Shown one piece after another: positions 795 through 12,565 of a DNA stretch of 64,000 nt. This DNA comes from Apostichopus japonicus (Eukaryota): contig NC_092575.1 of assembly GCF_037975245.1 (NCBI RefSeq), positions 8,269,331 through 8,333,330 on the forward strand. Reading direction: 5' to 3'. A model generated the notes under the pieces. It saw only the letters and a list, made by a program, of their open reading frames with translations. It was not told where the DNA came from and ran no database searches. Numbering within the stretch: the stretch's first letter is position 1; every line of letters starts with the position of its first letter. Position numbers and translations under genes: made by a program.

Positions 795-962
795 GAAGCC
801 AGTCGGACAGCTTAGAATCTTGCACCAAGGATATTACTGGGGGTTGCTGCCTAGAACAGATTCGTTGTGACGAAAAAAAGTGTTTGCCACCAAGCTGGGA
901 ATGTGACGGGGTGATAGATTGCCTTGATGGGAGGGACGAACCAGAAGGCTGTCAACCTAACG
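795..962 (+). CDS. Mosaic serine protease exon, LDL-receptor class A module 1. Phase 1-1. Encodes ...SCTKDITGGCCLEQIRCDEKKCLPPSWECDGVIDCLDGRDEPEGCQPN.
   Basis: Polypyrimidine tract plus AG at 793-794; donor ACG|GTGAGT at 963. Six-Cys pattern with CDGxxDC…DE is the LDLa signature. Exon phase is compatible with the downstream exons. Confidence 0.7.
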
Positions 963-2693
963 GTGAGTATAAGAGATCTTTAATAGTTTCACGCACGATA
1001 GATTGCAGGACTTATACCTCTACAGTAGTGTTACTGCTGGGAAATGTTGGTAATAGCTAACTATAGGTAAGGTATATCAACCATATAACGCAGCAGAACA
1101 TTCGCACTTTCATCCTTATCGAACGGAAATGAAATGTAGAGGCCATGGGAGGGGGGGGGGAGGGGGGTGTTGGTGGTGAGAGTGATGAACTGATGGTTGC
1201 CACAAATCAGTAGATATAACAGAAAAAAATCACTACACTCTTTGAATTGTCTTCCTGATGAAGCCGCATATACTACGATAAATCGATTAGTGAAAGCCTA
1301 CACTTTATCGATTAATGAAAGCCTACACGTTTACAGTTTTTCATCACCACCTCACAAAACCAAACTCATATGACTTTTATGCTTTAAGTTTTATTATACA
1401 AGTGCGCCTTTGCGATCAACTCATGCAACGTATCCAAAAATCTCATTAATATTCGTAGTAATAACACACCTTTTATTTTTTAGATAACGCATCCTATAAT
1501 TAGCAAACGTCTCACAGCACTTCATGCACCCAAATCTTATGTGAGAGAATAAAACGGAGCAAAATCCCAAAAAGCAGAATCAATGACAAAGGAAGATATG
1601 AAAAAAAAAAATAGGACCTAAAAGCCATAACGCTATATAGGCTATAACAATGACAGCAGAAAGGATAAAGTTTTACCAGTGACTAAGGCCGATTCATGAT
1701 AATGATGCAAATCTCAAAATTTAGACTTGTTTATGTCGACATGTTGACTTAGGCCTACTGTATTATCTAGATCCAAATTCTGACTTCTATCTTATTCAGG
1801 ACAATTTTGTAAGGCAGTTTAGCAGTGTTGTATAACAGAAAGCCATTTCCCTTGTAGTATTCAATATCAATCATTGTATATTCTACAAAATACTTCAAAC
1901 AATATGATGTTTGTGAAACTAAAAATTGATCAGCTGATTCTTTGGACAGTTGGAATAATGTTACCAATTGGCAGGATCCTAGCTGAATAATGCAGCCACC
2001 CCGTGGAGTGTACATGAGTGCAACCATCAGTTCTAGGGATGGGGTGAAGTGGGTGCTTAGATATTATCTCGCCCGGGGAGGGGTCTTAGGGCCCCTTTTG
2101 AGAAAGTTGGTTATAATGGGGTGTCCTTAGAAGCAAACCGGTGCTATTTTTGCAACTTTTCAAACAATGTTGAACAATTCTCAACTGGTAATAGGTTGTA
2201 CCGCACATACCTGTTGTGTATGTATACTGTACACCATAGAGTTTTGTTGTTGCAATATTCCGTATTCCCGGAGGGTGTGGTGGGGGTGGGGGGTGCGAAG
2301 CACCCTTGATTTTATTCCACGGGGTAAATCCCTAGAAGTGTACGTGGTGGTACCCCCGGTGTACCTGAATTGGAATAGAACGGGCGTGAAATTCAGCTAT
2401 TTATAAGAAAAAGCAGCAGGCTATAGAATCTTTGAGAAAAGCTATTAAAGGTTTGCTGTTATAATACACGTCGGAGGTGATCATAAAAGGGCTTAAGAAT
2501 ATAAACAGATGAGAAGATCCAGTCCTTTAAAATTACAGGCTACACTCGAGATAATACTGGCTGACTTGTGACTTCAAATCAATCAATAACGACTTGACTT
2601 AGATGAGAGCAGCTGTGGATGGTGACTTGAAACGACTTGCGAGTTGACTTGTCTTGACATTAATTTTACTACTTGATATGTTTTATTCTGTAG

Positions 2694-2792
2694 ATTTCGA
2701 TTGCGACAATGGGGCGTCAATACCGCTGACGTCACTGTGTGATGGTCGAGTCGACTGCGAACATGGCGAGGATGAGGGAGAACGATGCCGAA
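2694..2792 (+). CDS. Mosaic serine protease exon, short LDLa-like module 2 (variant lacking Cys1 and Cys3). Phase 1-1. Encodes DFDCDNGASIPLTSLCDGRVDCEHGEDEGERCR.
   Basis: Acceptor ttttattctgtag|; donor CGAA|GTAACT at 2793. CDGxVDC…EDE…C calcium-cage motif. Length is 99 nt with symmetric phase 1. Confidence 0.5.
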
Positions 2793-3244
2793 GTAACTTG
2801 TAACATATTTCATCCCCATTACTTTTATTATCGCCCTACTGCAGGTGCAAATAAGAAAAATCGAAATGTTATAGCTTAGAATGACAAAGAATATTTGTCT
2901 ATTTTACTTACCAGTCTGTCAAAGCTTCGTACAAGGCGGAGAGCAGACTGCACCACCCACCCCCCCCCCCCCCAAAAAATAATAATAATAAATTCAGGGG
3001 TATCCAAATTCGGGCAAAACTTGTTGAACAATTTGGGCAGCCTCGGGACGAACATGAAATTCCCCAAATTTTCTTCGATTCTTACCCGAATTGTTCCCGA
3101 AGTCTCCCCAAATCGCTCCCGAGACTTGCCCGCAGCGTTCCGATTCTTAACCATAATAAGACTCCCTTGAAAGGATTGGGATATTGTCGATCACGTTTCT
3201 CAGTAGCTGTTTCTTTCTAAGTATTTTAAATTATTTCCTTGCAG

Positions 3245-3370
3245 AGCATTGTCCAGACTTTAAATGCATCGATAGTAGTACCTGCTTCTCCAGAGACGAA
3301 TTGTGTGATGGCGTTAGTGATTGCAACGATACTAGCGATGAAGCAGGCTGCACCGTCCACAAAACAACAG
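3245..3370 (+). CDS. Mosaic serine protease exon, LDLa module 3. Phase 1-1. Encodes HCPDFKCIDSSTCFSRDELCDGVSDCNDTSDEAGCTVHKTT.
   Basis: Acceptor ttatttccttgcag|; donor ACAG|GTACTG at 3371. Canonical six-Cys LDLa with CDGxSDCxDxSDE. Confidence 0.75.
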
Positions 3371-9966: not shown

Positions 9967-10320
9967 CAAGGGCGTAGGAACCGGGGGGGCTGGGGGCGCC
10001 AGCCCCCCCCAGTGAAAAATATGGGGGGCGGAAGTATCGTTCCCCCCGCTCCGCAAGTCAGAAAACCCCTTTTTCATTTCCAAATGAGAAAAAAAATCTC
10101 ATTTGAAGCACCAAATTGCATCTAAGGCCAGGTGAAAATGCAAAATTCTTTACAAAATGGAGTGGGTGTTGAAGTGTGCTATAATGCACCAAATTGCATC
10201 TGAGGCCACCTGGAAATGCAAAAAATTCCAAAGGGGAGGGGGACTCCCCTTACACCCCTCCCCCAGGCCGGCCATCAGTCTTCAGCCCTCCCCACTCAAA
10301 AGTACCTTCCTACGCCACTG
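9967..10320 (-). mobile_element. hAT-like MITE, family A (~355 bp). Termini CAGTGGCGTAGGAAGG…/…CCTTCCTACGCC. Perfect 8-bp target-site duplication CTAACGAA.
   Basis: The 8-bp direct repeat is present at 9959-9966 and 10321-10328. Terminal inverted repeats are shared with the copies at 15637 and 33459. Internal G- and C-homopolymers and an inverted 'ggccaggtgaaaatgcaaaa' pair. Confidence 0.8.
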
Positions 10321-10761
10321 CTAACGAATACATGTTGGCCTATAGTATGAGGCGCCGTGTTTGACAAAAAATGATACACCGAATATATTGACCATAACTT
10401 CTCATATATATGAGTTATTCCGTAATATATATATAGGTCACAAGTAACACTCATATTTTAATGTTATATATAACCTATATATATTTCCATAACAAATATA
10501 CAATAGTAACTTATATATATTTGTTCCTGTAATCTTCTTATATGGCTCTCCATATTCCATGTTCGGCGAGCGCATATATATATACCTTTACCAAAAACTA
10601 TATACAAACCCAATGGAAGTAATTATAGCTCAATGTTATAATTTCTCGAGTGAGCAAATGGTGTATGCGTGAGGAGGGAGGTATGGATGGGAGGAGGAAA
10701 TGGGTTGTGCGCTCTAAAATTGAACAAGTTTCTCGAGATACATATTTGTTTTGTTTTACAG

Positions 10762-10913
10762 TTGTATCTGGTAGGCGAGCACAATGGCTTCAAGAGGCCC
10801 GTCTTCCGATAATAAATCATCAAACATGTAATCATGAGAATGTGTACGAAAATTCAATTGAAGATGATATGTTTTGTGCTGGATTTCTGGAAGGAAGAGT
10901 GGATGCTTGCAAA
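10762..10913 (+). CDS. Trypsin-like protease domain, exon 3. Encodes IVSGRRAQWLQEARLPIINHQTCNHENVYENSIEDDMFCAGFLEGRVDACK. Contains Asp189, the S1 specificity residue. Phase 1-0.
   Basis: LQEA.LPI…C…, MFCAG and DAC-K immediately preceding the GDSGGP exon. Acceptor ttgttttacag|; donor CAAA|GTAAGT at 10914. Confidence 0.8.
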
Positions 10914-12388
10914 GTAAGTATCACATTCCCAGTAAGTGACGATACTCTCACGGAGGGCCATGGTTGTGACGAAAGAACTGCAAACGTATTTCGCATTTGG
11001 CTAACGTATGGCTGTCACGAAACGTGTATATCTTAAAGGCATTGAAGACTCGCCCCAAACCGCGTGCGGCCAACTGAAAAGTTAATTTCTGTTGCCTGCA
11101 AGTGCCGTTTTGTTCGTGTCGCTACAAAATGCAGACAGTAATGAAACGTGATACTTTAATTGTTATCTTTAGCTGGACCTGAGATGTCCATCGCTGTATC
11201 GTTTGTATACTGTGCTGTGGGTATTGACCGCAGCTGTATGCACTGACTGACGGTTGCAAGCTGTGTGTGTATTTTCTGGGATCGATATGGTGGTGTTTAA
11301 CACTTCTGTTACACGTCATTCGAAACTAGGTCAAATTACCGGCATGAGACGTTTCTTTTTGCGCGAGTCTTCACATCCTTTAATTATGTTAGTATACCAT
11401 GATGATGGTCGATGTGGTTCATTCATTACCTTCATCCGTACACGGTGTGTGAGATGCCCATCATATTCTTTGCACTGCCCATTCGGCAAATCTAATTTTT
11501 TTTCTCCCTTTCTTTTCAATTGTGTACCAACGAAAATACGGCTATGAAATATTTGCTAGTACGTATCTGATTGTGCGCGGCGTGTGTTTGCGTGTGTATA
11601 TGGGTGTGCGTCTATGTATATTGATTAAGACTATGTTAGTATAATGATAGCATAGAACTGGCATTGTCAGGCTTTTGTAATAAATGGTTTCGATGACTCA
11701 TATTTATTCACCCCTCCCTACATGAAATGTACGGTAGGCTACTAGGTATTAGATAATGTATACGGTATTCTGACCACAACATTTGAAAACATGTTATACT
11801 TAACTTTCTCCCCACCTCGCATCCCTTGGGTGGGGGAGGGGAGAGGTGGACTTTTGAGGTGGGTTAAACAATGTTGTGTTTGTGTGTGAGGGTGTGCATT
11901 TGTGTGTTTTGTGTGTAATACTAGTATTTGTGTGACAAAAAGTGTAACATGAATTTCTCCTAAACCGGCAAAGGATATCGCAAAGTTTACATTGCATTAA
12001 TTAATACAAAACGCGAAAGTTTACGTGATCAATTGAGGTAAGTTCAAACTAGATCAAATTTAATTTGGTTATATATGCCAGTTTATGTTTAGGTATTTAG
12101 TTGTGGCTATTATGCACATCCAAAACACGACAACGTATAGTTCAACTTGTGAAAAGTGAATAATGACTTTTGGATTTAATCTTTAGAGCATTAATTAACG
12201 TAAATTGTCAACAGTCATGAGGTCAGTGGAATTCAAGGTTCATCAACTTCATTTGGTGGGTACATAACCAGGCACCGAGTGTGCCTATAATGGGGTGACA
12301 TTACAGTACATGTGTATCCCCACATTTTGAGATCTGCAACGCCTTGGCTTGCCTATTTGTTTTTTTGTTTTTTTCTTTTCTTCTATAG

Positions 12389-12565
12389 GGTGACTCGGGA
12401 GGACCATATGTCTGTTTAAATACAGCAGAGGACCGTTGGTTCCTGGTAGGAATCACCAGCTGGGGTCACGGCTGTGCTTTACCTAACAAACCAGGGGTCT
12501 ACACTAATGTCTCTTACTACTCACAGTGGATTGATTACGTCATACAAAACTATCAGCTGCCTTAG
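12389..12565 (+). CDS. Trypsin-like protease domain, terminal exon. Encodes [58 protein letters not shown]. Carries the catalytic Ser195 and the TAG stop at 12563-12565.
   Basis: GDSGGP, SWG.GCA and PGVYT signature motifs. Acceptor (T-rich tract) ttctatag|. In-frame stop. Confidence 0.85.

What the first reader, a model, noticed from the sequence alone, without database searches (positions are those of the whole stretch)
795..12565. Partial gene for a mosaic serine protease: five LDLa modules, one TSP1 repeat and a trypsin domain, with one-module-per-exon phase-1 architecture
Ten exons on the + strand join with fully consistent intron phases (1-1 for every LDLa and TSP1 module; 1-2, 2-1, 1-0 and 0 to stop across the protease domain). 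The trypsin domain has an intact catalytic triad (TAAHC, DIAIL, GDSGGP), Asp189 giving trypsin-like specificity, and an R|IIGG activation site, so it looks like a functional zymogen. LDLa plus TSP1 plus trypsin is a domain combination seen in invertebrate immune and developmental proteases and in corin/enteropeptidase-like proteins. The N-terminus, with the signal peptide and possibly more modules, lies upstream of the window. The symmetric phase-1 exons are a textbook substrate for exon shuffling.
Basis: partly seen in the sequence, partly recalled or inferred. Interest (0 to 1): 0.55.

Follow-up and report, generated by a model that had tools for sequence, protein, structure and literature searches.

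The report
Sea cucumber homologue of CGSP1 egg protease
The ten exons are real and encode almost all of an already annotated sea cucumber (Apostichopus japonicus) gene for a secreted trypsin-like protease; it is the counterpart of sea-urchin CGSP1, the egg enzyme that helps lift the fertilization envelope, so the finding is correct but ordinary.

Summary
Ten + strand exons (795-12565) have GT-AG borders and intron phases 1,1,1,1,1,1,2,1,0. They splice into a 546-aa open frame that scores Trypsin (6e-54), Ldl_recept_a x5 (2e-30) and TSP_1 (4e-9). The product is 100% identical to RefSeq XP_071850074.1, an "uncharacterized protein" of Apostichopus japonicus (582 aa). Only a 35-aa signal-peptide exon lies upstream of the window, and no further modules.

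The closest characterised relative is not corin or enteropeptidase. It is sea-urchin cortical granule serine protease 1 (CGSP1, AAD37426), at 41% identity over 543 aa (E 3e-132). The two share module order, a 4-Cys second LDLa, and matching intron phases and positions. They fall in one clade (100% bootstrap) apart from a second echinoderm LDLa-TSP1-trypsin group.

By homology, the protein is most likely an egg-granule zymogen. It would self-activate at R|IIGG on secretion and trim a few egg-surface targets during fertilization-envelope formation. Egg expression and this function are untested here.

One caveat: inside the clade the sea cucumber sequence does not sit next to the urchins, so strict 1:1 orthology is not proven.

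Verdict: a new, unnamed member of a known family. Low interest.

The parts
1..794 (+). 3' part of the intron that separates the missing signal-peptide exon from exon 1. The 35-aa N-terminal peptide of the RefSeq protein is not encoded anywhere in the window.
771..794 (+). Alternative 24-nt 5' extension of exon 1. An acceptor AG precedes 771. It adds ERYLLLSL, as in RefSeq isoform X1.
795..962 (+). Exon 1, phase 1-1: linker plus LDLa module 1 (8 Cys, with the canonical DxxxDxxDxxDE calcium cage).
2694..2792 (+). Exon 2, phase 1-1: degenerate LDLa module 2 with 4 Cys (C1 and C3 missing). S. purpuratus CGSP1 has the same 4-Cys form.
3245..3370 (+). Exon 3, phase 1-1: LDLa module 3 (6 Cys).
3528..3638 (+). 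Exon 4, phase 1-1: LDLa module 4 (CFSCD... type). Its best match is module 4 of the S. purpuratus CGSP1-cluster protein P0124.
4988..5107 (+). Exon 5, phase 1-1: LDLa module 5 (RCWxGAFLC... type). Its best match is module 5 of the S. purpuratus CGSP1-cluster protein P0124.
5896..6093 (+). Exon 6, phase 1-1: thrombospondin type 1 repeat (WSRWSPW, CSTSCG) plus an acidic linker.
6681..6894 (+). Exon 7, phase 1-2: pro-region Cys (LGCG), activation site Arg|Ile (6734-6739), first part of the protease domain with His57 (6872-6874).
9238..9515 (+). Exon 8, phase 2-1: Asp102 (9377-9379) and Cys122. An internal alternative donor after 9308 is used by isoform X3, which then lacks Asp102.
10762..10913 (+). 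Exon 9, phase 1-0: Cys168-Cys182 loop and Asp189 (10902-10904). Skipped in isoform X4, which shifts the frame to a stop.
12389..12565 (+). Exon 10, phase 0 to stop: GDSGGP with Ser195 (12395-12397), Gly216, Gly226, TAG at 12563-12565.

Best explanation
Window 795-12565 (+) carries ten of the eleven coding exons of a protein-coding gene of the sea cucumber Apostichopus japonicus (RefSeq XP_071850072/74/75/76, named only 'uncharacterized protein'). The product is a secreted single-chain zymogen built as follows: signal peptide (upstream of the window), five LDL-receptor class A modules (the second degenerate), one thrombospondin type 1 repeat, and a trypsin-like S1 protease domain. It belongs to the family of sea-urchin cortical granule serine protease 1 (CGSP1) and is probably its orthologue.

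Shown here:
- the gene structure
- the domain content
- intact catalytic and S1-pocket residues
- the Arg|Ile-Ile-Gly-Gly activation site
- the cysteine pair (pro-region Cys and Cys122) that in related two-chain proteases tethers the cleaved catalytic chain to the stem
- collinear similarity and shared intron positions with the urchin gene

Inferred by homology to CGSP1:
- The zymogen is made in oocytes and stored inactive in acidic cortical granules.
- It is released at fertilization and activates itself at the Arg|Ile bond in sea water.
- It then cuts after Arg/Lys in a small set of targets. In urchins these include the p160 tether between vitelline layer and plasma membrane, and ovoperoxidase. 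The egg coat can then lift and harden into the fertilization envelope.
- The Ca2+-binding LDLa modules and the TSP1 repeat probably hold the enzyme to partner granule or egg-coat proteins.
For: Gene model:
- Canonical splice sites, consistent phases and a 546-codon open frame.
- 100% identity to the RefSeq protein, and four RefSeq isoforms explained by alternative sites in the window.

Domains and active site:
- Pfam hits for Trypsin, Ldl_recept_a x5 and TSP_1.
- Catalytic residues aligned to bovine trypsin.
- The closest solved S1 domains are enteropeptidase, hepsin, plasmin and TMPRSS2.

CGSP1 link:
- The best non-self hits are urchin proteins (P0002 44%, Diadema 42%). P0002 is 69% identical to the S. 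purpuratus cluster that contains AAD37426.1/Q9XZM7/NP_999636.2, 'cortical granule serine protease 1'.
- Direct comparison with CGSP1: 41% identity over 543 aa, E 3e-132, collinear across all modules.
- CGSP1 has the same three Pfam families.
- The S. purpuratus gene has a 35-aa signal-peptide exon followed by ten exons with identical phases. Six of the nine shared introns fall at identical alignment columns, one is a column apart, and two lie beside gapped inter-module linkers.
- Module against module, the diagonal scores best for LDLa1, 3, 4, 5 and TSP1. LDLa2 is the same 4-Cys form in both species.
- In a full-length NJ tree, the clade holding CGSP1 and the window protein is separated from a second echinoderm LDLa-TSP1-trypsin clade with 100% bootstrap.
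- A profile search found no other A. japonicus protein in this group.

Secretion: the only hydrophobic stretch is residues 4-25.

CGSP1 function:
- CGSP1 is released from cortical granules at fertilization and cleaves the p160 tether (bioRxiv 10.1101/369504).
- It is autocatalytic and has an LDL-receptor-like domain (title of Haley & Wessel 1999).
- Storage at low granule pH and activation at pH 8 come from my own recollection of Haley & Wessel 2004 (PMID 14978210), which the tools do not hold.
Against: - No expression, localisation or activity data for the sea cucumber gene were available.
- Identity to CGSP1 is only about 41-42%.
- In the protease-domain-only tree the clade has weak support (41%).
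- In the full-length tree the starfish sequence groups with the urchins (98%) to the exclusion of the sea cucumber. That is not the accepted species tree (holothuroids sister to echinoids). It could mean a fast-evolving sequence or hidden paralogy.
- No shared neighbouring gene with the S. purpuratus locus was found.
- One calcium-ligand Asp in LDLa2 is His in the sea cucumber.
- The homology searches pre-filter candidates by shared words, so a second A. japonicus paralogue could have been missed.
Confidence: 0.6

Rival explanations
1. The gene is a genuine CGSP1-family member, but in the sea cucumber it works outside fertilization. It could be a secreted extracellular-matrix, coelomic or immune, or developmental protease. 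The family would then be broader in function than the urchin paradigm.
For: - The branch is long and its placement does not follow the species tree.
- A hemichordate has the same LDLa-TSP1-trypsin layout, and amphioxus has it with an added CUB domain, so the layout is older than echinoderm fertilization envelopes.
- LDLa and TSP1 modules are general protein-binding modules.
- No expression data were obtained.
Against: - The only experimentally studied member is the egg cortical-granule enzyme.
- Architecture, module identities and gene structure are conserved one to one with it.
- No second A. japonicus candidate for the egg role was found.
Confidence: 0.3
2. [quoted passage not shown] The reader's comparison points this way, as do the automatic names given to relatives ('transmembrane protease serine 3', 'suppressor of tumorigenicity 14 homolog').
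For: - The S1 domain is most similar to enteropeptidase, hepsin and TMPRSS2 among solved structures.
- It has LDLa modules upstream and the pro-region Cys plus Cys122, as in those proteases.
- It has an intron just after the His57 motif and a phase-0 intron right before GDSGG; I recall similar placements in that group (own knowledge, not tested here).
Against: - The RefSeq N-terminus is a 35-aa segment whose hydrophobic core starts at residue 4. There is no cytoplasmic tail and no other hydrophobic segment.
- No SEA, CUB, SRCR or frizzled stem domain is present.
- A TSP1 repeat is present, which none of the listed vertebrate relatives carries.
- The nearest characterised relative, CGSP1, is described as a protease released from cortical granules at fertilization.
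Confidence: 0.04
3. The exons are a decaying or unexpressed gene copy, or a gene-prediction artefact.
For: Two RefSeq isoforms (X3, X4) would be catalytically dead. No transcript was inspected directly.
Against: - Ten exons show no frame disruption and have canonical splice sites.
- All catalytic, disulfide and calcium-cage residues are kept.
- Residue conservation across echinoderms points to purifying selection.
Confidence: 0.03

Closest known systems
Cortical granule serine protease 1 (CGSP1) of Strongylocentrotus purpuratus (AAD37426.1 / Q9XZM7 / NP_999636.2; Haley & Wessel 1999, 2004)
   Same: - Similar size (581 vs 582 aa).
- Signal peptide, five LDLa modules with a 4-Cys second one, one TSP1, and a trypsin-like domain with Asp189 and an R|I(V/I)GG site.
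- 41% identity, collinear over 543 aa.
- Eleven coding exons with the same phases and matching intron positions.
   Different: - Identity is only about 41%.
- The sea cucumber module 1 has two extra cysteines.
- One Ca2+-ligand Asp in module 2 is His.
- S. purpuratus has two tandem copies, while the window has one.
- Egg-granule storage, pH-gated self-activation and substrates are known only for the urchin enzyme.
Second echinoderm LDLa-TSP1-trypsin group ('clade B': Acanthaster/Patiria 'TMPRSS6-like' P0021/P0030, Anneissia P0009, Amphiura P0027)
   Same: - LDLa modules, and a trypsin domain with the same three intron positions and phases in the one clade-B gene mapped, Acanthaster P0021. Pfam records TSP1 for P0021 and P0030 but not for P0009 or P0027.
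- 38-43% identity to the window protein.
   Different: - A long non-modular N-terminal region.
- Two to six LDLa modules of ordinary type. The 4-Cys module and the CFSCD and RCWxGAFLC modules are not seen in the one clade-B sequence aligned in full (Acanthaster P0021).
- Separated from the CGSP1 clade with 100% bootstrap.
Vertebrate type II transmembrane serine proteases (matriptase/ST14, TMPRSS7/9, hepsin, enteropeptidase, corin)
   Same: - Closest S1 domains among solved structures (E about 1e-53 to 1e-46).
- LDLa modules before the protease.
- Pro-region Cys and Cys122 present, as for a disulfide-tethered two-chain form.
   Different: - They have an N-terminal signal anchor and SEA, CUB, SRCR or frizzled stems, and no TSP1.
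- The window protein has a short signal peptide and a TSP1 repeat.
Branchiostoma floridae CUB-LDLa-TSP1-trypsin protein (P0194, named 'atrial natriuretic peptide-converting enzyme-like')
   Same: LDLa, TSP1 and trypsin in the same order; 38% identity over 70% of the query.
   Different: It has a CUB domain and only two LDLa modules. Its function is unknown.

Membership tests
Peptidase family S1 (chymotrypsin/trypsin fold), active trypsin-like enzyme | Full-length S1 domain with His57, Asp102 and Ser195 | tested here: met
   Pfam Trypsin 6.1e-54 over model positions 1-220 of 220. H, D and S align to those of bovine trypsin.
Peptidase family S1 (chymotrypsin/trypsin fold), active trypsin-like enzyme | Asp189, Gly216 and Gly226 in the S1 pocket (Arg/Lys specificity), and an Arg|Ile-x-Gly-Gly zymogen activation site | tested here: met
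   VDACKGDSGGP aligns to KDSCQGDSGGP. SWGHGC...KPGVYT and TTR|IIGG are present. Enzymatic activity itself cannot be tested with these tools.
CGSP1 (echinoderm cortical granule serine protease 1) family | Collinear architecture: signal peptide, LDLa modules, TSP1, trypsin domain, no membrane anchor | tested here: met
   same Pfam set in CGSP1; collinear alignment; a single N-terminal hydrophobic stretch. The signal peptide comes from the RefSeq protein, not from the window.
CGSP1 (echinoderm cortical granule serine protease 1) family | Groups with CGSP1 rather than with other LDLa-bearing proteases | tested here: met
   The best hits are CGSP1-cluster urchin proteins. The clade has 100% bootstrap on the full-length alignment. 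Caveats: support is weak (41%) with the protease domain alone, and placement inside the clade does not follow the species tree.
CGSP1 (echinoderm cortical granule serine protease 1) family | Shared gene structure and one-to-one module correspondence | tested here: met
   Identical phases, with intron positions matching (six of nine at identical alignment columns), in the S. purpuratus gene. The module score matrix is diagonal except for LDLa2, which shares the 4-Cys form.
CGSP1 (echinoderm cortical granule serine protease 1) family | Strict 1:1 orthology (reciprocal best match within complete proteomes, synteny) | tested here: inconclusive
   No other A. japonicus member was found, but the searches are pre-filtered. 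No shared neighbour with the urchin locus was found. The topology within the clade is unexpected.
CGSP1 (echinoderm cortical granule serine protease 1) family | Made in oocytes, stored in cortical granules, released at fertilization | not testable with these tools
   Needs A. japonicus ovary or egg RNA-seq, proteomics or immunolocalisation. No paper on this gene was found.
CGSP1 (echinoderm cortical granule serine protease 1) family | Autocatalytic, pH-gated activation and limited target set (p160, ovoperoxidase, beta-1,3-glucanase) | not testable with these tools
   Known for the urchin enzyme only (title; details from my own recollection of PMID 14978210).
Type II transmembrane serine proteases (matriptase, corin, enteropeptidase, TMPRSS) | N-terminal cytoplasmic tail plus signal-anchor transmembrane helix | tested here: not met
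   Only 35 aa precede the first module. The hydrophobic core starts at residue 4, and no other window reaches Kyte-Doolittle >= 1.6.
Type II transmembrane serine proteases (matriptase, corin, enteropeptidase, TMPRSS) | Stem with SEA, CUB, SRCR, frizzled or MAM domains | tested here: not met
   Pfam finds only Ldl_recept_a, TSP_1 and Trypsin.

The most novel reading that the evidence does not exclude
The LDLa-TSP1-trypsin protease is an ancient deuterostome egg-coat or extracellular remodelling enzyme. It is present in sea cucumbers, urchins, starfish, crinoids and a hemichordate, with a CUB-bearing relative in amphioxus. The holothurian copy may have diverged in role, given its long branch, extra cysteines and altered Ca2+ site. 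If so, the family would give a handle on how the echinoderm block to polyspermy arose from a more general secreted protease.
Probability: 0.2. Interest if true: 0.35.

Novelty: new member of a known kind. Interest (0 to 1): 0.15.

Why it matters
The main value is for annotation. A sea cucumber gene labelled 'uncharacterized protein', and urchin and starfish relatives mislabelled as 'transmembrane protease serine 3' or 'ST14 homolog', can be tied to the experimentally studied CGSP1 family.

It also shows that the one-module-per-exon, phase-1 layout has been stable since before sea cucumbers and sea urchins split, rather than being recently shuffled. For an aquaculture species, a candidate fertilization-envelope protease is a modestly useful marker of egg quality.

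None of this would surprise a specialist.

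Tried and rejected
- Searched the whole window in six frames for the 35-aa N-terminal peptide of the RefSeq protein. It is not there, so the first coding exon is upstream.
- Tried to fetch the genomic record through exact-protein look-up of P0001 and P0122. Neither is on record.
- Looked for a second protease copy in the window with tblastn. 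None was found.
- Tested microsynteny. The S. purpuratus locus has a tandem CGSP1 duplicate and a Cpn60/TCP1 gene downstream. Nothing from that flank matches the window.
- Built a protease-domain-only NJ tree. It is poorly resolved, with 41% support for the CGSP1 clade, so I replaced it with a full-length tree.
- The primary CGSP1 papers (PMC404006) and the paper I recall as Oulhen et al. 2013 (DOI 10.1111/ede.12012) are not held. Functional statements therefore rest on a secondary source and on my own recollection.
- No paper on this gene in A. japonicus was found.
- Rejected the corin/enteropeptidase/TTSP reading: no signal anchor and no SEA, CUB or SRCR domains, with TSP1 present.
- I considered a complement factor I / C6-C9-like reading only from memory. 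It is not supported, because Pfam shows no FIMAC, SRCR or MACPF domains.

Full report
**Observation**

I read window 1-14000. I listed stop-free stretches with cysteine-rich or protease motifs and then every GT/AG near their ends. One consistent chain of ten + strand exons emerges:
- 795-962
- 2694-2792
- 3245-3370
- 3528-3638
- 4988-5107
- 5896-6093
- 6681-6894
- 9238-9515
- 10762-10913
- 12389-12565

Each acceptor follows a pyrimidine-rich tract and AG, and each donor is GT(A/G)AG-like. The intron phases are 1,1,1,1,1,1,2,1,0. The joined sequence is open for 546 codons and ends at the TAG at 12563-12565.

**Domains**

Pfam on the spliced product gives Trypsin at 6.1e-54 (covering the whole model), Ldl_recept_a at 2e-30 with five separate stretches, and TSP_1 at 3.7e-9. 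Each LDLa and the TSP1 sit in their own phase 1-1 exon.

Reading the modules:
- LDLa1, 3, 4 and 5 have all six cysteines of the consensus (module 1 has eight) and the acidic calcium cage.
- LDLa2 has only four cysteines (C1 and C3 absent), and one cage Asp is His.
- The TSP1 has WSRWSPW and CSTSCG.

It also has Gly216 and Gly226, the four usual intradomain disulfides, Cys122, and a pro-region Cys just before TTR|IIGG. The sequence therefore predicts a zymogen that is cleaved after Arg. By analogy with related two-chain proteases, the catalytic chain would stay disulfide-linked to the stem.

**Identity of the gene**

A search of about 5.8 billion proteins returns a 582-aa RefSeq protein of the sea cucumber Apostichopus japonicus, XP_071850074.1, 'uncharacterized protein isoform X2'. 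It is 100% identical over the whole 546 aa.

The extra 36 residues are MDNLARIILISVICSTCCSGSLEIFQTADISRYKR plus the split Gly codon. This peptide is not encoded in the window, so one short 5' coding exon lies upstream. There are no further modules.

The other RefSeq isoforms are explained by sites in the window:
- X1 uses an acceptor 24 nt upstream, at 771.
- X3 uses a donor after 9308 inside exon 8 and so loses Asp102.
- X4 skips exon 9 and runs into a stop.

**What it is related to**

The best non-self hits are urchin proteins (44% and 42%), then starfish, crinoid and Saccoglossus proteins with the same three Pfam families. Vertebrate TMPRSS9 and ST14 hits match only LDLa and the protease.

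A second search from the urchin hit, followed by a cluster listing, shows that the S. purpuratus relatives include AAD37426.1 / Q9XZM7 / NP_999636.2, 'cortical granule serine protease 1'.

Evidence for the link to CGSP1:
- The direct comparison is 41% identical over 543 aa, E 3e-132, collinear from LDLa1 to the C-terminus. CGSP1 scores the same Pfam families.
- I fetched the S. purpuratus gene (L001) and mapped its protein exactly. It has a 35-aa signal-peptide exon, then ten exons with phases 1,1,1,1,1,1,1,2,1,0.
- On a protein alignment, six of the nine shared introns fall at identical columns, one is a column apart, and two lie beside gapped inter-module linkers. The three protease-domain introns are also shared with a clade-B starfish gene, and two of them with the crinoid gene, where the first could not be mapped.
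- Module against module, the best score lies on the diagonal for LDLa1, 3, 4, 5 and TSP1. LDLa2 is the same unusual 4-Cys form in both species.

The module order is therefore inherited, not recently shuffled.

**Orthology**

A protease-domain-only NJ tree is poorly resolved.

A full-length NJ tree separates two groups with 100% bootstrap. One holds CGSP1, the window protein, starfish, crinoid and Saccoglossus sequences. The other is a second echinoderm LDLa-TSP1-trypsin group.

Inside the first group the starfish joins the urchins (98%) and the sea cucumber is outside them. That is not the accepted species tree. I read this as a long branch, but hidden paralogy is not excluded.

Other checks:
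- A profile search with eight members found only this one A. japonicus protein. It added starfish members and an amphioxus CUB-LDLa-TSP1-trypsin protein.
- The window has no second copy. S. purpuratus has a tandem pair.
- No neighbour is shared between the two loci at the scale I could see.

**Mechanism**

Shown:
- a secreted-type N-terminus, with the only hydrophobic stretch at residues 4-25
- Ca2+-cage LDLa modules and a TSP1 repeat
- an intact trypsin-like zymogen

Inferred from CGSP1:
- The urchin enzyme is released from cortical granules at fertilization and cleaves the p160 tether, so that the vitelline layer lifts (bioRxiv 10.1101/369504).
- It is autocatalytic (title of Haley & Wessel 1999).
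- From my own recollection of Haley & Wessel 2004 (PMID 14978210), it is quiescent at the acidic granule pH, self-activates at sea-water pH, and has few targets: ovoperoxidase, beta-1,3-glucanase and itself.

I propose the same cycle for the sea cucumber protein. My confidence is about 0.97 for the gene and domain model, about 0.85 for family membership and about 0.5 for the egg function.

**Comparison and verdict**

This is not a type II transmembrane protease, despite the automatic names on relatives. It has no signal anchor and no SEA, CUB or SRCR stem, and it does have TSP1.

It is a new, so far unnamed member of the known CGSP1 family, and it is already present as a RefSeq model. The interest is low.

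Noticed in passing
window 39229-39708 (+) and 46380-46715 (+): There are exons of a phosphatidylserine decarboxylase (PISD) gene downstream on the same strand. The 46380-46712 ORF hits Pfam PS_Dcarbxylase at 7.9e-11. The 39229-39705 ORF reads like the conserved PISD N-terminal region but gave no Pfam hit.
   Followed up: partly
window 10003-10291 (intron 8), 15664-15967 (inverted), 33709-33767: An interspersed repeat of about 300 nt carrying G/C homopolymer runs. One copy sits inside the protease gene's intron 8, an inverted copy (85-100% over segments) lies about 3 kb downstream of the gene, and a third partial copy is near 33.7 kb.
   Followed up: partly
whole window, e.g. 1151-1160, 2960-2973, 4361-4374, 4798-4811, 7053-7066, 8037-8048, 9126-9137, 13844-13857: There are 22 runs of nine or more G or C in 64 kb, nine of them inside the protease gene's introns. 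That is far more than base composition predicts. They are probably parts of repeat families. Such runs could also be error-prone in sequencing.
   Followed up: no
window 24368-24660, 25250-26095, 32647-33102, 21594-22031: Four minisatellites: (CCTTG/CCCTT)n, a 23-nt unit x 37, a 35-nt unit x 13, and a 144-nt unit x 3. They create long spurious ORFs on both strands.
   Followed up: no
window 9308/9309 and exon 9 (10762-10913): RefSeq isoforms X3 (internal donor in exon 8, loses Asp102) and X4 (skips exon 9, frameshift to stop) would be catalytically dead. They may be splicing noise or regulated unproductive splicing.
   Followed up: partly
upstream of window (RefSeq residues 30-35) and S. purpuratus CGSP1 residues about 40-45: A basic cluster lies right after the signal peptide and before LDLa1: RYKR in the sea cucumber, RRSRR or RRPRR in urchins, KGNKR in starfish. 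It looks like a conserved proprotein-convertase-type site.
   Followed up: no
L004 1-1811 and 10001-19300 (S. purpuratus AAGJ06000002.1): S. purpuratus carries two tandem CGSP1-like genes (580 and 581 aa) followed by a Cpn60/TCP1 gene. The sea cucumber window has a single copy and no TCP1 neighbour.
   Followed up: partly
protein P0127 (Antedon mediterranea, 709 aa): The crinoid relative contains an exact internal duplication of the LDLa2-LDLa5 block. This is either a real tandem exon-block duplication or an assembly or annotation artefact.
   Followed up: no
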